Shown: positions 12,551 through 46,129 of the stretch, piece by piece
Layout of the letters: every line of letters begins with the position of its first letter
Position numbering within the stretch: position 1 is the stretch's first letter
Assembly (NCBI RefSeq): GCF_016026235.1
Contig: NZ_CP065613.1
Source: Escherichia coli
GTDB lineage: Bacteria > Pseudomonadota > Gammaproteobacteria > Enterobacterales > Enterobacteriaceae
DNA: 64,000 nt
Reading direction: 5' to 3' (one strand)
Position numbers and translations under genes: made by a program
Notes under the pieces: model-generated
What the model saw: the letters and a program-made list of their open reading frames with translations, nothing else
Told to the model about the DNA's origin: nothing
The model's database searches: none

Positions 12551-12956
12551 TACCACCTCTTAAAAAAATGCCCACATAGTGTAGTGCGGAGCGCATGTTG
12601 GGTAAACAGAGTGTTAATGAGAAAATATTACAGAGGAGAATAATTTGTGTGTCAGGTATGTTTTTTGCATTCATAAAATGAATGCTCTATATGTTGAAAA
12701 AATGAATTTTAAAGCTAAATAGTTTTACATCAAAAAAATAATAATATCATTTCTTGATTACCATGTGCATTTTTTATCTTACGAATATGCTAGTTTTATC
12801 TTACTAAATAAACGATTTGGTGACATGGATGATAATGTTTCAGGCTAAATGTGTGCTTATTACTTGGGCCTTTATGGCACTGTATTTATTCATTAAATGG
12901 ATGTTTGGTGGTTAATTATTATGGAAATATATGACAGTGAGGACATAAAGGTATAA

Positions 12957-13892
12957 ATGTTAACTAAAAGAATATTATTTTCTTTAATGCTAATAGTTTC
13001 ACCAGGCGTGGTGGCAAGCGAGAAAGCGCATGAATTGTATGACAGCATATACGGTGGTAAACCTGCTCCCGATGTTATAAATACACTGCATAAAATGGCT
13101 GAATCGGGAGATATCGACGCGCAGAGCCTGTTAGGCTGGGAATATTATCAGCCTCGCTATGATACCAAACCTGATGTTCAGGAAGCGATTAAATGGTTCG
13201 AGTTAGCCGCTAAACAAGGTGACAGAGAAGCTCCGTTAGCGCTGGGGAGTATCTACTACGACGGTGAGCAGGTGCGGGTGGATTATGCCAAAGCGTATGC
13301 ACTATTTAATCAGGCCGCGCAATACGGTGTGAATTTAGCATGGTCCAGGTTGGGCATGATGTACGCCAATGGTCAGTATGTTGAGGTAGATTGTAAGAAA
13401 GCGAAGGAATATCTTGATAAAGGTGTCCACATTTATGGTGGCCCGGAAGACTTTCTGGCTACTTGTCGAAAAGACATGATTGACAGAAAAACGGTTGAGG
13501 ATATGTTACCCGTGATCACGGTTACCCGTTCTGGGATGCGGGATAATTTTTTAGATAAAGGTTTTTCCTGCATGGATAGCCACTTCGCCACCACCAATAA
13601 ATTAGGCGAAGTGGCCAATCTTCGCGTGACATTCAGCATTCGTCGCCCATCCGGTAAGGAGATTAACCAAACGGTTGGCTTCGCGCCTTTCGGTTTAAAC
13701 CGGCTGAATATTAGCTTTACTGATTACCTATTTGGTTCATTTACCAGTAATTCGTCTCTTATTCTTTATAAACCGGAATTTGAGCGAAAATCTTGTGCAA
13801 CTGTAAGGACCACAATCGTTGCCGCAACGGCAACCATTAACGGCAAGGATGTGGAGTTGCTGAAAGCGGGGGCAATTGAACAAAAGTGGTAA
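12957..13892 (+). CDS. secreted Sel1-like repeat (SLR/TPR-like) protein with unassigned C-terminal domain
   Basis: 311-aa ORF; N-terminal signal peptide MLTKRILFSLMLIVSPGVVAS; repeated AxxWFxxAAxQG/YANG motifs; SD AAGG upstream; sits in an insert absent from K-12 (memory). Confidence 0.75.
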   Translation: MLTKRILFSLMLIVSPGVVASEKAHELYDSIYGGKPAPDVINTLHKMAESGDIDAQSLLGWEYYQPRYDTKPDVQEAIKWFELAAKQGDREAPLALGSIYYDGEQVRVDYAKAYALFNQAAQYGVNLAWSRLGMMYANGQYVEVDCKKAKEYLDKGVHIYGGPEDFLATCRKDMIDRKTVEDMLPVITVTRSGMRDNFLDKGFSCMDSHFATTNKLGEVANLRVTFSIRRPSGKEINQTVGFAPFGLNRLNISFTDYLFGSFTSNSSLILYKPEFERKSCATVRTTIVAATATINGKDVELLKAGAIEQKW

Positions 13893-13947
13893 CGCTACTC
13901 AGCCCCCGGCTGAGGCAAGACTTGCCCTGGCGGGTGGCGATAATAAT

Positions 13948-14490
13948 CTAAGCCGCGAGAATATGCTGAATCGCCAAAAACATAGGTACAGCACCAAAAG
14001 CATTTGGTGTCGCTGAAAGCTGAACAAAGCCGAGACGAGCATAAAAGTTAATGGCGGCAGGGTCAGCATCAAGATAAACCCCTTTAATTGGTAATGCCTG
14101 GTGAATTATTTTTACATGTTCAAAAAAATCACATAGTAGGTCCTGACCAAAGCCCCGCTTTTGATACTTCCGCGCTATCCCCAACATGACTAATCTGACA
14201 ACACCAATTTCTGAAGGTTGTGAACCCTGAAGGACGCCAGAAACGCGTTGTTTTTCCAGCGAATATGCCGTAAAAGTACAGATGCCAATCAGTTCACCAC
14301 TTTGTCTGTCAATAAGTGCTTTAGCCGCACAGTCGCTATTACGCACACTTTTCTTTAGCGATGCGCGTACAAATTTATCGATAACAGGGTTACCGCAATC
14401 AAACTGTTTTTGCCCAGGATAAGTAATATCAGACTGATAATTACAGGAGAGGACTATGGGCAGAGTAATCTCTTCATGCTTGTCGACCAT
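13948..14490 (-). CDS. GNAT-family acetyltransferase toxin (TacT/ItaT/KacT-like type II toxin)
   Basis: 180-aa ORF with GNAT acetyl-CoA motif (RKYQKRGFGQDLL); overlaps upstream antitoxin stop by 17 nt. Confidence 0.8.
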   Translation of the reverse strand: MVDKHEEITLPIVLSCNYQSDITYPGQKQFDCGNPVIDKFVRASLKKSVRNSDCAAKALIDRQSGELIGICTFTAYSLEKQRVSGVLQGSQPSEIGVVRLVMLGIARKYQKRGFGQDLLCDFFEHVKIIHQALPIKGVYLDADPAAINFYARLGFVQLSATPNAFGAVPMFLAIQHILAA

Positions 14491-14785
14491 CGCTGTTTTT
14501 CCTTTTCATTAACGCCTTGAGGGCGAGCGTCGGTTGAGCAGGTTCAGCGATGAGTTGGTTCATCAGTTCCCAGCTTTGATTCGAAAGCTCACGGCGACGT
14601 TGGTTATCAAGCACACTTTCGGCGCGTTCCATAGCAGCGCTCAAAATAAAAGCGCTTAAATCTACCCCAACGGCTTGCGCAGCTTCACGAAGTTTGTTTT
14701 TGGCGTCGGGACTAGTTTTGAGTTCGACCCGCGCATTTTTCAGCGTTTTATCGACATCGTGTAGAGTGGCTGTTTTTCCAGGCAT
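14474..14785 (-). CDS. DUF1778 (RHH-type) antitoxin partner of the GNAT toxin
   Basis: Met at 14785 with SD AGAGG; about 103 aa; precedes and overlaps the toxin gene; the ORF extension to 14851 is likely artefactual. Confidence 0.75.
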   Translation of the reverse strand: MPGKTATLHDVDKTLKNARVELKTSPDAKNKLREAAQAVGVDLSAFILSAAMERAESVLDNQRRRELSNQSWELMNQLIAEPAQPTLALKALMKRKNSDGRQA

Positions 14786-14838
14786 TATGACCTCTTTGAT
14801 TAACTGAATGAAATCGTAGGGAGTCGATCTCATACATA

Positions 14839-14916
14839 ATACGGCTATCAACCGTATGATTAATTTATGTGCATCTGCTCACTCTGTCAAGAGATACGGT
14901 TATTAGCCGTATCTCT
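14839..14916. promoter_or_regulatory. two palindromic operator-like sites (ATACGG-N7-CCGTAT) upstream of the antitoxin gene
   Basis: 14839..14857 ATACGGctatcaaCCGTAT; 14890..14916 AGAGATACGGttattagCCGTATCTCT (10-bp perfect arms). Confidence 0.45.
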
Positions 14917-14926
14917 GATCTCAGAC

Positions 14927-14954
14927 AATAAAAAAGGTGCCGTAGCACCTTTTT
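14927..14954 (-). terminator. putative intrinsic terminator downstream of cyoE
   Basis: hairpin AAAAAGGTGC-cgta-GCACCTTTTT; on the minus strand it is followed by a U-run. Confidence 0.5.
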
Positions 14955-14969
14955 AATAGAGAGGTTTTG

Positions 14970-15860
14970 TTACCACACAGCAGCCAGCAGCGTATGCGAG
15001 TCCGGCACCATAAAATCAACGGACATCATCACCGAGAGGGCAGTGATGGCGATGATAGAGAAGCCGAACAGCTTGCGCGCCCAGATTCTGTCATCAGCAA
15101 CTTTATAACCGCGCAGAGCCATACCTAACCACCAGACGCTAACCGCCGCGGCGACCACCAGATATTTATACCCAGCGTAACCGCCAAGAGAGAGCATCAG
15201 CGTGGCAACGGCAAAGGCGATGATATACAGCGTGATGTGATTCTTCGCCACCGAAATGCCTTTTACCACTGGCAATACCGGAATGTTTGCCGCTTGGTAA
15301 TCCTTAAAGCGGAAAATGGCGATGGCATAGGAGTGAGGCATCTGCCACAGGCTGAAGATAGCCAGCAGGATCGCTGCGCCGCTATCGAACTCGCCGGTTA
15401 CTGCACAGTAGCCAATCACCGGCGGCGCAGCGCCGGAGAGCGAACCAATCAATGTGCCGTAGACTGAGTGGCGTTTCATGTACAGGCTATAAACGCCGAC
15501 ATAAACCACAAAGCCCATCACCCCCAGCCAGCAGGCCAGCGGATTCGCGCCAAACCACAGCAGCATAAAGCCAGCAATACCCAGCAAGGTGGCGTACACC
15601 AGCGAGACAGCAGGAGAGATCAGGCCTTTAACCAGCACCCGATTCTTCGTCCTTTCCATCTTTCTGTCGATATCCCTGTCGATGTAGTTGTTAAACACAC
15701 AACCCGACGCCACAACCAGTGACACCCCAACCAGCGTGTAGATAAACAGGGGATAATCAATGCTGCCCTTTGAGGCCAGCAGGAATCCCCCAATCACCGA
15801 GATCAGGTTGCCAAAGATGATGCCTGGTTTCGTTACTTGCAGGTATTGCTTAAACATCAT
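14970..15860 (-). CDS. cyoE: heme O synthase (protoheme IX farnesyltransferase)
   Basis: ORF 14970..15905; Met at 15860 gives [22 protein letters not shown]. Confidence 0.9.
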
Positions 15861-15871
15861 AACCGCCGCTC

Positions 15872-18808
<2,937 letters not shown>

Positions 18809-18817
18809 TCAACCCCT

Positions 18818-19765
<948 letters not shown>

Positions 19766-20224
19766 TTAACGACCTCAATTCCACGGGATCTGGTGGCGTT
19801 TAAAGTGTGTGGGCATTTTACGGGAAGGTTACATTACTGTAAACATGATTAAATTTCTGTTACTTAGATTTGGCTGCCAGGTCACATATGTTGCAAAACA
19901 TATCAGGTTGATTTTAAGAAGCTGTTGCAAAAGCGCGTTATAACAAAAGGGGAGTGCAGAAGGAGCCTGGGCGGGCAATTGGTATAACCAATGCGAAATA
20001 AAACAATTATTTAACAAATGATTATCATTGGAGTGACAACTGGGTGGTGAGAAAATAAAGACTCATTAGCTGAATCGTGTAAGAAAAATAGAATTTATAA
20101 ATGGCGCCAATAATTTCCAACCGCTAAGCCGCACAAAAGAACAAATATTAATAAGCGATGCTGATGTTTATTTAGCCGTAATAATTACGGCGAGTGATTA
20201 CTACAGCTAAATAATATTTACAGA

Positions 20225-26855: not shown

Positions 26856-26885
26856 TTAACCATTCCCATACAATTAGTTAACCAA

Positions 26886-26916
26886 AAAGGGGGGATTTTA
26901 TCTCCCCTTTAATTTT
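26886..26916 (+). terminator. putative terminator downstream of clpX
   Basis: hairpin AAGGGGGGAT/ATCTCCCCTT followed by a T-run. Confidence 0.5.
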
Positions 26917-27042
26917 TCCTCTATTCTCGGCGTTGAATGTGGGGGAAACATCCCCATATACTGACGTACATGTTAATAGATGGCGTGAAGCACAGTCGTG
27001 TCATCTGATTACCTGGCGGAAATTAAACTAAGAGAGAGCTCT

Positions 27043-45829: not shown

Positions 45830-46129
45830 CTGGCACGCAATGGGTTGCAATTCGCCGGGGCAGCAGTGATAATGCGCCTGCGCGTTGGTTTTCAACGCTC
45901 TCAATGGGGGCTCTGTTGGTTCTCCCGCAACGCTACTCTGTTTACCAGGTCAGGTCCGGAAGGAAGCAGCCAAGGCAGATGACGCGTGTGCCGGGATGTA
46001 GCTGGCAGGGCCCCCACCCATTTCTGCCTCCCACCGTTTCGTCAAAAAATCCCAACATGGCTAAACTTTAACCACAACTGACGTCGCAAGAATTGTCTGG
46101 CTGCGCAGTACGCTTCGGAGGTATGTCTG

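What the first reader, a model, noticed from the sequence alone, without database searches (positions are those of the whole stretch)
12557..14930. ~2.4 kb accessory insert between yajR and cyoE with two convergent cargo units and no mobility genes
From memory K-12 has yajR (b0427) immediately followed by cyoE (b0428). Here 2.4 kb separates them, containing a Sel1-repeat secreted protein (+) and a GNAT/DUF1778 toxin-antitoxin pair (-) transcribed towards each other. No integrase, transposase or obvious direct repeats bound the insert, so it may be an ancestral segment lost from K-12 rather than a recent insertion.
Basis: partly seen in the sequence, partly recalled or inferred. Interest (0 to 1): 0.55.

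Follow-up and report, generated by a model that had tools for sequence, protein, structure and literature searches.

The report
Old non-mobile ItaRT / Sel1 chromosomal islet
The 2.4 kb between yajR and cyoE is a real accessory islet carried by about a quarter of E. coli genomes, made of the already characterised ItaR-ItaT toxin-antitoxin pair plus an uncharacterised exported Sel1-repeat protein; it is old and ordinary, not a new kind of element.

Summary
In the window, 2,419 bp separate yajR from cyoE, against 148 bp in K-12. The interval holds a 311-aa Sel1-repeat gene (+) converging on a GNAT/DUF1778 pair (-). There is no integrase, transposase, tRNA or flanking repeat.

The pair is the published ItaR-ItaT system: ItaT matches PDB 7BYY at 178 of 180 residues. 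The same locus exists in BL21 and REL606.

The islet is accessory, present in 1,367-1,370 of 5,426 complete E. coli genomes, always once at this site.

It is also old. The Sel1 gene lies at the same junction in E. albertii, four unnamed Escherichia lineages and a Superficieibacter-like MAG. Its synonymous divergence roughly tracks the flanking genes.

K-12 shows no deletion scar. Its 95-bp spacer is a separate allele, 72% identical to the islet-side spacer, 94-98% identical to empty sites in E. whittamii and E1V33, and closer to Citrobacter. About 150 bp is the commonest spacing in the Enterobacteriaceae sampled. Flanking haplotypes do not follow presence or absence, which fits exchange by homologous recombination.

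The one unstudied part is the Sel1 protein, whose C-terminal β-sandwich resembles only IrmA among solved structures. Interest is low.

The parts
11186..12550 (-). yajR (MFS transporter), the left core flank
   Evidence: ORF list and RefSeq annotation of the 99.9%-identical FDAARGOS_943. It is 98.2% identical to K-12 yajR.
12561..12652 (.). Islet-type allele of the conserved yajR promoter spacer. It carries the motifs TAGTGTAnnGCGG, GGGTAAA, AAATATTAC and TTTGTG.
   Evidence: It aligns to K-12's 95-bp spacer with score 21 against 9.3 +/- 1.4 for shuffles. The same motifs occur in empty sites of many genera. The first 100 bp upstream of yajR are 72% identical between the two allele types. They are 97% identical to Escherichia sp. 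MOD1-EC7003, which also carries the Sel1 gene.
12653..12956 (+). AT-rich (27% GC) leader and putative promoter region upstream of the Sel1 gene, with a hairpin at 12667-12685
   Evidence: Composition. Several sigma-70-like hexamer pairs and the hairpin appear; the hairpin folds with z = -2.1. The region is homologous to the sequence upstream of the long Sel1 gene in the four-gene form (window 11000-12933 aligns to L088 1536-3493). No Rfam match. Promoter function is inferred.
12957..13892 (+). Gene for an exported Sel1-like-repeat protein (311 aa). It has an N-terminal signal-peptide-like segment, about nine helices with three Pfam Sel1 repeats (residues 54-155), and a C-terminal eight-strand β-sandwich (about 185-311). 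Four Cys are conserved (146, 170, 205, 280).
   Evidence: Pfam PF08238 matches three times, with nothing on residues 160-311. SLR structures match by sequence and by fold. The AF2 model has pLDDT 86.5. The C-terminal domain modelled alone matches IrmA 5ek5 at E = 4e-5, TM 0.59-0.68. Conserved Cys come from alignment A1. dN/dS is 0.21-0.27 between species. The signal peptide is read from the sequence; no predictor was run.
13893..13947 (.). 55-bp spacer between the two convergent stop codons
   Evidence: It contains a GC-rich hairpin without a T-run, folding no better than shuffles (z = -1.3 and -0.5). No convincing bidirectional terminator.
13948..14490 (-). itaT, the GNAT-family aminoacyl-tRNA N-acetyltransferase toxin
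   Evidence: 178 of 180 residues are identical to PDB 7BYY. That entry is ItaT carrying an engineered G115D change (PMC7367177). The window has wild-type G115, the KRGFG acetyl-CoA loop and Y150. It differs from BL21 ItaT at two residues, V105I and S144P.
14474..14785 (-). itaR, the DUF1778/TacA-type ribbon-helix-helix antitoxin, overlapping itaT by 17 nt
   Evidence: Matches KacA 5zgn (E = 4e-11) and AtaR 6ajm. The copies in other loci carry a precomputed Pfam TacA1 hit. One residue differs from BL21 ItaR. Coordinates follow the annotation.
14786..14926 (-). itaRT promoter region. It has a -35 TTGACA (14890-14885), a 17-nt spacer and a -10 TAAATT (14867-14862). Two 19-bp palindromes ATACGGYTATYARCCGTAT bracket it at 14894-14912 and 14839-14857 and are candidate ItaR-ItaT operators.
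   Evidence: Promoter scan scores 10 of 12. The palindromes are repeats I3 and I20. The layout is conserved in BL21, SMS-3-5, E4694, CP057686 and, apart from changes in the hexamers and the proximal palindrome, the Superficieibacter-like MAG; it is absent upstream of the Citrobacter plasmid homologue. Repression of this upstream region by the ItaR-ItaT complex is published (PMC6125619). The operator assignment is my inference.
14927..14969 (-). cyoE (cyoABCDE) intrinsic terminator, shared with K-12; this is the right junction
   Evidence: Homology with K-12 resumes at 14927. The terminator hairpin is at 14954-14931. The same hairpin abuts the spacer in empty sites of other genera.
14970..15860 (-). 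cyoE (heme o synthase), the right core flank
   Evidence: It is 99.0% identical to K-12.

Best explanation
The interval is a small, non-mobile chromosomal islet. It sits in the spacer between the cyoABCDE terminator and the yajR promoter and carries two independent units.

Unit 1 is the itaRT type II toxin-antitoxin operon. ItaT uses acetyl-CoA to acetylate the alpha-amino group of charged elongator tRNAs, chiefly Ile-tRNAIle, and this stalls translation elongation. ItaR binds and neutralises ItaT, and the ItaR-ItaT complex represses its own promoter. These steps are shown in the literature for proteins 98-99% identical to the window's. I infer that repression works through the two 19-bp palindromes that bracket the -35 and -10 elements.

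Unit 2 is a gene for a Sec-exported protein with Sel1-like repeats and an IrmA-like β-sandwich. It is probably a periplasmic or secreted protein-binding adaptor. This is inferred and no ligand is known.

The islet is an old resident of the genus Escherichia. A four-gene form (long Sel1 paralogue, short Sel1, itaT, itaR) occurs in two lineages outside E. coli. E. coli and E. albertii have the short Sel1 gene fused directly to the shared upstream region. Other lineages have lost or replaced the TA part.

In E. coli the islet segregates as one of two allele classes: islet-bearing and empty. I infer that these classes move between strain backgrounds by homologous recombination in the flanking core genes, not by any mobility function of the islet.
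For: Identity of the TA pair:
- ItaT matches PDB 7BYY at 178 of 180 residues, and 7BYY is ItaT.
- The ItaR fold family is confirmed, and the catalytic residues are intact.
- Mechanism comes from PMC6125619, PMC7367177 and PMC9177977.
- The promoter and palindromes are present and conserved.

The Sel1 protein. It is under purifying selection, with omega 0.21-0.27.

Age and site fidelity:
- The same left junction is seen in L005, L084, L088, L090 and L091. The same right junction (terminator, then palindrome) is seen in L088, L090 and L086.
- All E. coli alleles listed lie within about 1-3% of each other, and none exceeds 90.4% identity to the CP057686 allele.
- Between species, Sel1 dS is 0.30-0.49, against 0.18-0.33 for yajR and 0.08-0.26 for cyoE.

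Two allele classes exchanged by recombination:
- All 22 sampled empty genomes have the two flanks exactly 430 bp apart.
- All 6 empty sites fetched carry the K-12-type spacer with 0-2 SNPs.
- yajR of islet-bearing strain 09-00049 differs from islet-less K-12 by 2 SNPs. cyoE-cyoD differs by 0-4 SNPs among window, BL21 and O104:H4 (all islet-bearing) and O157:H7 (empty).

No mobility apparatus.
Against: - Recombination-mediated switching is inferred from 17 loci, not from a species-wide phylogeny. No recombination breakpoints were mapped.
- The Sel1 protein's export signal, location and function are predictions only.
- The operator role of the palindromes is untested.
- Sel1 dS is 1.2-6 times that of the flanking genes, depending on gene and species pair. 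Alleles older than the species, or some inter-species transfer, therefore remain possible.
- itaRT of Escherichia sp. E4694 is nearly identical to E. coli's (itaT dS 0.016 against 0.11-0.18 for the flanks). At least part of the islet does cross species boundaries.
Confidence: 0.8

Rival explanations
1. K-12 and the other islet-less E. coli lost an ancestral islet by simple deletion.
For: The islet is old and genus-wide at this site. Genes within it do decay: IS3 or IS1 insertions and a frameshift in the Sel1 gene, and a truncated itaT in L086. Loss is therefore plausible in principle.
Against: No deletion scar exists. The 95-bp spacer of empty strains is 72% identical to the islet-side spacer, yet 94-98% identical to empty sites in E. 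whittamii and E1V33, and closer to Citrobacter/Salmonella in 15 of 16 loci. All 6 empty sites examined carry that same allele, and all 22 sampled empty genomes have identical 430-bp spacing. A spacing of about 150 bp is the commonest state across the family.
Confidence: 0.1
2. The islet, together with its own version of the yajR promoter spacer, entered Escherichia from another enterobacterial genus. Entry was by homologous replacement using the yajR and cyo flanks, so the islet allele is foreign and not an in-situ insertion.
For: The islet-type spacer is more similar than the K-12 type to spacers of Kluyvera, Klebsiella, Enterobacter, Kosakonia and Silvania. It wins in 43 of 76 non-Escherichia loci, while the K-12 type wins mainly in Citrobacter and Salmonella. 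A Superficieibacter-like MAG has the same gene order and the same junctions. Inter-species exchange of the itaRT segment is visible for E4694.
Against: The signal rests on about 100 bp and identity differences of 5-10 points, among phylogenetically non-independent loci. No donor with a closely related islet was found: the MAG's Sel1 protein is only 60% identical and its flanks are equally diverged. The 28% divergence between spacer alleles is comparable to neutral divergence across the genus (dS about 0.27-0.39 to E. albertii). Long in-situ divergence also fits.
Confidence: 0.25
3. The segment is a recent insertion delivered by a mobile element (integrase, transposase or phage) that has since left or decayed.
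For: GC content is below the genome average (42.7% against 50.8%), with a 27% GC stretch. itaRT-like pairs occur on Citrobacter, Serratia and Rahnella plasmids. The site holds different cargo in other genera, so it behaves as a hotspot.
Against: There is no integrase, transposase, tRNA or target-site duplication. In E. coli the islet occurs once, always at this site, on the chromosome; the single plasmid-labelled place was not examined, and the full-length E. coli hits in PLSDB are megabase-sized records, evidently mislabelled chromosomes. Junctions are identical across species. Synonymous divergence tracks the flanking genes. The plasmid homologues are only 65-72% identical, lack the Sel1 gene and, in the one examined, have a different promoter.
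Confidence: 0.03

Closest known systems
ItaR-ItaT (itaRT) of E. coli HS and BL21(DE3) (Wilcox et al. 2018, PMC6125619; Zhang et al. 2020, PMC7367177, PDB 7BYY)
   Same: It is the same locus and the same genes. ItaT matches 7BYY at 178 of 180 residues, and one of the two differences is the engineered G115D. Two residues differ from BL21 ItaT and one from BL21 ItaR. BL21 carries the pair between the same Sel1 gene and cyoE.
   Different: The window carries a rare allele. The islet is about 1.5% diverged at nucleotide level from all other E. coli copies, and only FDAARGOS_943 shares it. It has ItaT V105I. The papers do not describe the genomic setting, the neighbouring Sel1 gene or the operator.
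Other GNAT/DUF1778 type II TA systems: AtaRT (E. coli O157:H7), KacAT (Klebsiella), TacAT (Salmonella)
   Same: The architecture is the same (an upstream RHH/DUF1778 antitoxin overlapping a GNAT toxin) and so is the chemistry, acetylation of aminoacyl-tRNA. Sequence matches to 5zgn, 6ajm, 6gts, 7ak8 and 5fvj have E = 1e-3 to 1e-6.
   Different: They are distant paralogues. ItaT lies in a different clade (clade B in PMC9177977) and prefers Ile-tRNA, not Gly-tRNA or a broad set of hydrophobic aminoacyl-tRNAs.
EsiB/c5321 and other bacterial Sel1-like-repeat (SLR) proteins (PDB 4bwr, 6ok3, 8sxq, HcpC 1ouv)
   Same: The N-terminal half (residues about 40-157) is an SLR solenoid. phmmer gives E = 8e-43 to 4bwr, and Foldseek gives E about 1e-6 to several SLR structures.
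   Different: It has only about 3-4 repeats. It also carries a C-terminal β-sandwich with four conserved Cys that these proteins lack. Nothing is known about its ligand.
IrmA (C1275) of uropathogenic E. coli, the interleukin-receptor mimic (PDB 5ek5; PMC4807369)
   Same: It is the only significant solved-structure match for the C-terminal domain (E = 4e-5, TM 0.59-0.68, about 130 aligned columns). Both proteins are exported.
   Different: Identity is 15%. IrmA is a free-standing domain-swapped dimer, whereas here the domain is fused to Sel1 repeats. Cytokine binding is untested. The comparison rests on a predicted model with pLDDT 81.6.
Integration hotspots without mobile elements in enterobacterial chromosomes (a general concept, recalled from my own knowledge of E. 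coli pangenome studies and not checked here)
   Same: One intergenic site between conserved core genes holds different small cargoes in different lineages. These are the Sel1/itaRT islet in Escherichia, an Hcp + STM2901-family module in Citrobacter, single ORFs in Salmonella arizonae/diarizonae and Yokenella, and a sugar-utilisation cluster in Superficieibacter. Turnover appears to go through flanking homology.
   Different: Nothing distinguishes it in kind. This particular site was not found described in the searchable literature.

Membership tests
ItaRT / GNAT-DUF1778 type II toxin-antitoxin | The toxin is a GNAT acetyltransferase with the acetyl-CoA loop (Q/RxxGxG/A) and the catalytic Tyr150 | tested here: met
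   178 of 180 residues match ItaT 7BYY. K111-R-G-F-G115 and Y150 are present. The roles of these residues are described in PMC7367177.
ItaRT / GNAT-DUF1778 type II toxin-antitoxin | A DUF1778/TacA ribbon-helix-helix antitoxin is encoded immediately upstream in the same operon | tested here: met
   itaR 14474-14785 overlaps itaT by 17 nt. It matches KacA and AtaR structures. The copies in other loci carry a Pfam TacA1 hit.
ItaRT / GNAT-DUF1778 type II toxin-antitoxin | The toxin arrests growth by acetylating aminoacyl-tRNA, and the antitoxin neutralises it | not testable with these tools
   This is shown experimentally for the HS alleles (PMC6125619, PMC7367177, PMC9177977). The window alleles differ from BL21, whose pair the 2018 paper calls virtually identical to HS, at 2 residues (ItaT) and 1 residue (ItaR), none of them at a described catalytic position.
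ItaRT / GNAT-DUF1778 type II toxin-antitoxin | The toxin-antitoxin complex autorepresses transcription at an operator in the promoter | tested here: inconclusive
   Repression of the 172-bp upstream fragment by ItaR-ItaT is published. Here I found two conserved 19-bp palindromes bracketing a 10-of-12 sigma-70 match. Binding was not tested, and the paper does not map an operator.
Sel1-like repeat (SLR) proteins | Tandem Sel1 repeats of about 36 residues (Pfam PF08238) forming an alpha-alpha solenoid | tested here: met
   Three PF08238 matches, the best at E = 4.5e-7. phmmer hits SLR structures. The AF2 model has 9 helices, and Foldseek matches SLR structures at E about 1e-6.
IrmA-like cytokine-receptor mimics | An IrmA-type β-sandwich that forms a domain-swapped dimer and binds cytokines | tested here: inconclusive
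   Only fold resemblance was tested: E = 4e-5, TM 0.59-0.68, 15% identity. Dimerisation and binding cannot be tested here. I do not file the protein as an IrmA family member.
Classical genomic island / integrative mobile element | An integrase, recombinase or transposase gene | tested here: not met
   The interval holds only the three genes. No other ORF of 70 aa or more lies outside them. The annotation agrees. IS elements appear only as secondary insertions in a few strains.
Classical genomic island / integrative mobile element | Insertion next to a tRNA/tmRNA gene, with flanking direct repeats | tested here: not met
   No tRNA lies in 8000-20000. No bounding direct repeat was found.
Classical genomic island / integrative mobile element | Base composition deviating from the host chromosome | tested here: met
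   42.7% GC against 50.8%, with a 27% GC leader.
   It is absent from K-12 and present in 1,367-1,370 of 5,426 genomes.

The most novel reading that the evidence does not exclude
The islet could be a long-lived presence/absence polymorphism maintained by selection across Escherichia species. Under this reading, the ItaRT addiction module protects the neighbouring gene from deletion. That gene would encode a new class of exported host- or envelope-interaction factor: an SLR solenoid like the IgA-binding EsiB, fused to an IrmA-like cytokine-receptor-mimic domain. The sharply bounded 28% divergence of the adjacent yajR promoter would then be the footprint of ancient balanced alleles, possibly with different yajR regulation.
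Probability: 0.1. Interest if true: 0.55.

Novelty: already known. Interest (0 to 1): 0.22.

Why it matters
It matters little as a discovery. The toxin-antitoxin pair is published with biochemistry and a crystal structure. The whole islet is annotated in more than 1,300 RefSeq genomes, including BL21 and REL606.

Three points are of modest use:
- ItaRT now has an evolutionary context. It is an old, non-mobile, genus-level islet at a cyoE-yajR hotspot, with a candidate two-palindrome operator.
- The case shows how to tell two old alleles exchanged by recombination from an insertion or a deletion. The diverged promoter spacer is the tell-tale.
- An uncharacterised, narrowly distributed family of exported Sel1 proteins with an IrmA-like β-sandwich is under purifying selection and has no known function.

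Tried and rejected
- A global alignment of the K-12 spacer to the whole interval with cheap gap extension gave meaningless scattered blocks. I replaced it with local alignment plus shuffles.
- I looked for remnants of the long Sel1 paralogue in the window's AT-rich leader by tblastn and found none.
- I searched all complete E. coli genomes for the long paralogue and found no match.
- I looked for a second, divergent islet allele class in E. coli using the CP057686 allele as query. None exists; the best identity is 90.4%.
- The odd partial hit in strain HH97 is 1.17 kb of homopolymer-ridden sequence. I treat it as assembly noise, not a third allele.
- Rfam at a permissive threshold gave no match in 12300-15200.
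- PADLOC defence models gave nothing meaningful.
- NCBIfam gave only sub-threshold repeat matches for the Sel1 protein and none for ItaT.
- The 55-bp convergent spacer is not a convincing terminator.
- Flank haplotypes showed no linkage with the islet, so I dropped the idea of an extended divergent haplotype.
- Literature searches for locus tags of the Sel1 gene and for yajR/cyoE/itaT together found nothing beyond the ItaT paper.
- The YajR scan of species representatives returned only 3 Escherichia loci among its best 80. The reference genomes of E. coli, E. fergusonii, E. marmotae and E. ruysiae were not examined through that route.
Full report
**What is there.**
Gene coordinates come from the ORF list and the RefSeq annotation of a 99.9%-identical genome, E. 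coli FDAARGOS_943.
- yajR lies at 11186-12550 (-).
- A 311-aa Sel1/TPR gene lies at 12957-13892 (+).
- A 180-aa GNAT gene lies at 13948-14490 (-).
- A 103-aa DUF1778 gene lies at 14474-14785 (-) and overlaps the GNAT gene by 17 nt.
- cyoE lies at 14970-15860 (-).

K-12 has yajR and cyoE 148 bp apart. Against K-12, near-identity ends at window 12560 and resumes at 14927, just before the cyoE terminator hairpin. The interval is compositionally distinct: 42.7% GC, with a 27% GC stretch at 12653-12956, against 50.8% for the window. It contains no integrase or transposase ORF. It has no tRNA, no Rfam match and no bounding direct repeats.

**The junctions, refined.**
K-12's 95 bp between the two homology blocks is not unrelated sequence. 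It aligns to window 12566-12636 with a local score of 21, against 9.3 +/- 1.4 for shuffles. Empty sites from a dozen genera share a conserved layout between the yajR start and the cyoE terminator. The layout reads TAGTGTAnnGCGG, then GGGTAAA, then AAATATTAC, then TTTGTG. The window keeps a full but diverged copy of this spacer at 12561-12652. The DNA with no counterpart is thus about 12653-14926. It lies between the yajR promoter spacer and the cyoE terminator.

**The toxin-antitoxin pair is ItaRT.**
The GNAT protein matches PDB 7BYY at 178 of 180 residues. That entry is ItaT(G115D). The window has wild-type G115, the KRGFG acetyl-CoA loop and Y150. It differs from BL21 ItaT at two residues and from BL21 ItaR at one. 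The antitoxin matches the KacA and AtaR structures.

The published work shows the following:
- ItaT is toxic, and ItaR neutralises it.
- The ItaR-ItaT complex represses the itaRT upstream region.
- ItaT acetylates Ile-tRNAIle. It also acetylates Val- and Met-tRNA, with Ile-tRNA(GAU) as the main physiological target.
- A virtually identical pair exists in BL21(DE3).

These points come from PMC6125619, PMC7367177 and PMC9177977. BL21 indeed carries the same three genes between yajR and cyoE.

Upstream of itaR I find a 10-of-12 sigma-70 match: TTGACA, 17 nt, TAAATT. Two 19-bp palindromes, ATACGGYTATYARCCGTAT, bracket it at 14894-14912 and 14839-14857. The arrangement is conserved in E. coli, two other Escherichia lineages and, with changes in the hexamers and the proximal palindrome, a Superficieibacter-like MAG. 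It is absent from the Citrobacter plasmid homologue. The 2018 paper does not map an operator, so this assignment is my inference.

**The Sel1 protein.**
Pfam finds three Sel1 repeats in residues 54-155 and nothing in 160-311. Sequence and fold searches match SLR proteins such as c5321/EsiB, Oxalobacter and Legionella SLR proteins and SEL1L. An AF2 model (pLDDT 86.5) has a disordered N-terminal 20 residues, which read as a Sec signal peptide ending VVA|SE. It then has nine helices and an eight-strand β-domain.

Modelled alone (pLDDT 81.6), the C-terminal domain has one significant solved-structure match. That match is IrmA, the secreted interleukin-receptor mimic of uropathogenic E. coli, at E = 4e-5, TM 0.59-0.68 and 15% identity (PMC4807369). 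In AFDB50, nearly all the significant matches with 26-37% identity are annotated Sel1 or TPR proteins. They come from Salmonella, Pectobacterium, Morganella, Affinibrenneria and E. fergusonii; a few, such as a Proteus entry, are short or unannotated. Four Cys are invariant or nearly so across the family. The function is unknown. An exported protein-binding adaptor is the most economical guess.

**Distribution in E. coli.**
The islet-only query hits 1,370 of 5,426 complete genomes, 1,367 of them over at least 80% of its length. Nearly every carrier has a single copy on the chromosome; one genome shows two places and one place is on a plasmid-labelled record.
- Carriers listed include BL21 and REL606, O104:H4, O26:H11, O111:H8 and SMS-3-5.
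- IAI39 also encodes the protein.
- K-12 and O157:H7 lack it.
- By my own knowledge of strain typing, carriers therefore span at least phylogroups A, B1 and F.
- All 22 sampled islet-less genomes have the two flanks exactly 430 bp apart.
- The window's allele is rare. Only FDAARGOS_943 is at least 99% identical; the bulk are about 98.5% and a minority about 96.7%.
- The Sel1 gene is disrupted in some strains, by IS3 or IS1 or by a frameshift, while itaRT stays annotated as intact.
- On true plasmids only distant itaRT-like pairs occur (65-72% nucleotide identity), without the Sel1 gene. The full-length E. coli hits in PLSDB are megabase-sized records, evidently mislabelled chromosomes.

**Beyond E. 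coli.**
A YajR-anchored scan of species representatives returned 80 loci. The cyoE-yajR spacing is about 150 bp in about 30 of them. These include Escherichia sp. E1V33, E. whittamii and many Citrobacter, Enterobacter, Kosakonia, Buttiauxella and Pluralibacter. Empty is thus the commonest state where both genes were found, and the islet is derived at family level.

The site is also a hotspot, holding different cargo in different lineages:
- Citrobacter species hold an orphan Hcp/TssD + STM2901-family + 107-aa module.
- Salmonella arizonae and diarizonae hold a 352-374-aa ORF.
- Yokenella holds a lipoprotein gene.
- Superficieibacter holds a sugar-utilisation cluster.

The Sel1 protein family is narrow, with 36 hits in 5.8 billion proteins. 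Every copy I traced with at least about 58% identity lies between yajR and cyoE. Five forms were seen:
- **Four-gene form:** long Sel1 paralogue of 499 aa, short Sel1, itaT, itaR. Found in Escherichia sp. E4694 and CP057686.
- **Long + short Sel1 only:** found in E4930.
- **Short Sel1 + a 325-aa ORF:** found in E. albertii. The ORF has an N-terminus that reads as a signal peptide and matches no NCBIfam family.
- **Short Sel1 + a truncated M20 amidohydrolase:** found in MOD1-EC7003.
- **Long + short Sel1 + a truncated itaT + intact itaR:** found in a MAG whose yajR is 96% identical to Superficieibacter sp..

The window form equals the four-gene form minus the long gene. Window 11000-12933 aligns to L088 1536-3493, and window 12957 onward aligns to L088 5001 onward. 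E. albertii shares this short-only junction. The long gene is absent from all complete E. coli genomes.

**How old, and how does it move?**
Between species, Sel1 dS is 0.30-0.49. This is of the same order as yajR (0.18-0.33) and cyoE (0.08-0.26). Its omega is 0.21-0.27, against 0.07 or less for the flanks. Within E. coli, Sel1 dS is 0.025-0.04. No E. coli allele is closer than 90.4% to the CP057686 allele. The islet has therefore largely co-diverged with its hosts and encodes a functional but less constrained protein.

One exception is clear. The itaT, itaR and promoter sequences of E4694 are 99-100% identical to the window (itaT dS 0.016), while its flanks have dS 0.11-0.18. This indicates a recent inter-species exchange of that segment.

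The two spacer alleles are 72% identical. The K-12 type is 94-98% identical in E1V33 and E. whittamii. It is closer than the islet type to 15 of 16 Citrobacter/Salmonella loci. The islet type is 97% identical in MOD1-EC7003 and tends to resemble spacers of more distant genera. All six empty E. coli sites I fetched carry the K-12-type spacer with 0-2 SNPs.

Flanking haplotypes do not follow the islet. yajR of islet-bearing strain 09-00049 differs from K-12 by 2 SNPs. The window's yajR is closest to islet-less O157:H7, at 11 SNPs. cyoE-cyoD differs by 0-4 SNPs among window, BL21, O104:H4 and O157:H7.

The simplest reading is two old allele classes that are swapped between backgrounds by homologous recombination, with crossovers right at the edges of the non-homologous block. 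I saw no deletion scar, so "lost from K-12 by deletion" is not supported. Loss by allelic replacement cannot be excluded. Whether the islet allele arose in situ in an early Escherichia or was imported with its own spacer from another genus remains open. I give the imported-origin reading about 0.25.

**Verdict.**
The segment is accessory, non-mobile and old, but K-12's empty site is an alternative ancient allele, not a deletion. The TA system is already known in detail, and the islet is present in BL21 and more than 1,300 RefSeq genomes. The only unstudied element is the Sel1 protein with its IrmA-like domain. Interest is low. The searchable literature does not describe the islet or the Sel1 gene. 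The evolutionary description and the candidate operator are small additions, not discoveries.

Noticed in passing
window 1383-2939 (-): An intact 518-aa ORF lies between pgpA and yajO. The same gene in FDAARGOS_943 is annotated as a frameshifted pentapeptide-repeat protein. It may be another small accessory insert relative to K-12. I did not check K-12.
   Followed up: no
L102 1-2608 (E. coli MS20645, NZ_CP082091.1 487693-491608): This strain is islet-less at yajR-cyoE. On the far side of yajR, two large SLR/TPR genes (a 717-aa SEL1-like protein and a TPR protein of about 570 aa) sit where yajQ and panE lie in other strains. They show only weak similarity to the window's Sel1 family.
   Followed up: partly
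L090 5992-7013 (Escherichia sp. E4694): itaT, itaR and their promoter are 99-100% identical to the window (itaT dS 0.016). The flanking cyoE and yajR have dS 0.107 and 0.182, and the adjacent Sel1 gene is only 89.6% identical. This points to a recent inter-species recombination tract covering just the TA segment.
   Followed up: partly
L106 3786-4959 (E. coli HH97): The yajR-cyoE interval is 1.17 kb of homopolymer-rich sequence with an 81%-identical fragment of the Sel1 gene and no annotated genes. It looks like a badly assembled islet, not a real degraded allele.
   Followed up: yes
L007, L008, L013, L016, L020 (Citrobacter spp.); L010, L012 (Salmonella arizonae/diarizonae); L084 6048-7025 (E. 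albertii): The same intergenic site holds other small cargo without mobility genes. Citrobacter has an orphan Hcp/TssD + STM2901-family + 107-aa ORF module. Salmonella has a 352-374-aa ORF with no NCBIfam match. E. albertii has a 325-aa ORF with a signal-peptide-like N-terminus and no family match.
   Followed up: partly
L099 1644-2484 (C. freundii plasmid pRHBSTW-00697_3): An itaRT-like pair (72% nucleotide identity, different promoter) sits next to a gene annotated 'baseplate protein' on a roughly 99-kb non-mobilizable plasmid. This may be a phage-plasmid.
   Followed up: no
L086 6991-7232 (Superficieibacter-like MAG): Only the N-terminal part of itaT survives here (window 14231-14490 aligns), while itaR is intact. 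The toxin is truncated and the antitoxin kept.
   Followed up: partly
window 26876-26971, 45914-46010, 62814-62878: These are ordinary core RNA features: the sraA sRNA, the SRP RNA (ffs) and the dnaX frameshift element. Over the 50 kb compared (about window 1-50000, thiL to acrB), gene order is as I recall it for K-12, apart from the islet and the ORF at 1383-2939.
   Followed up: no
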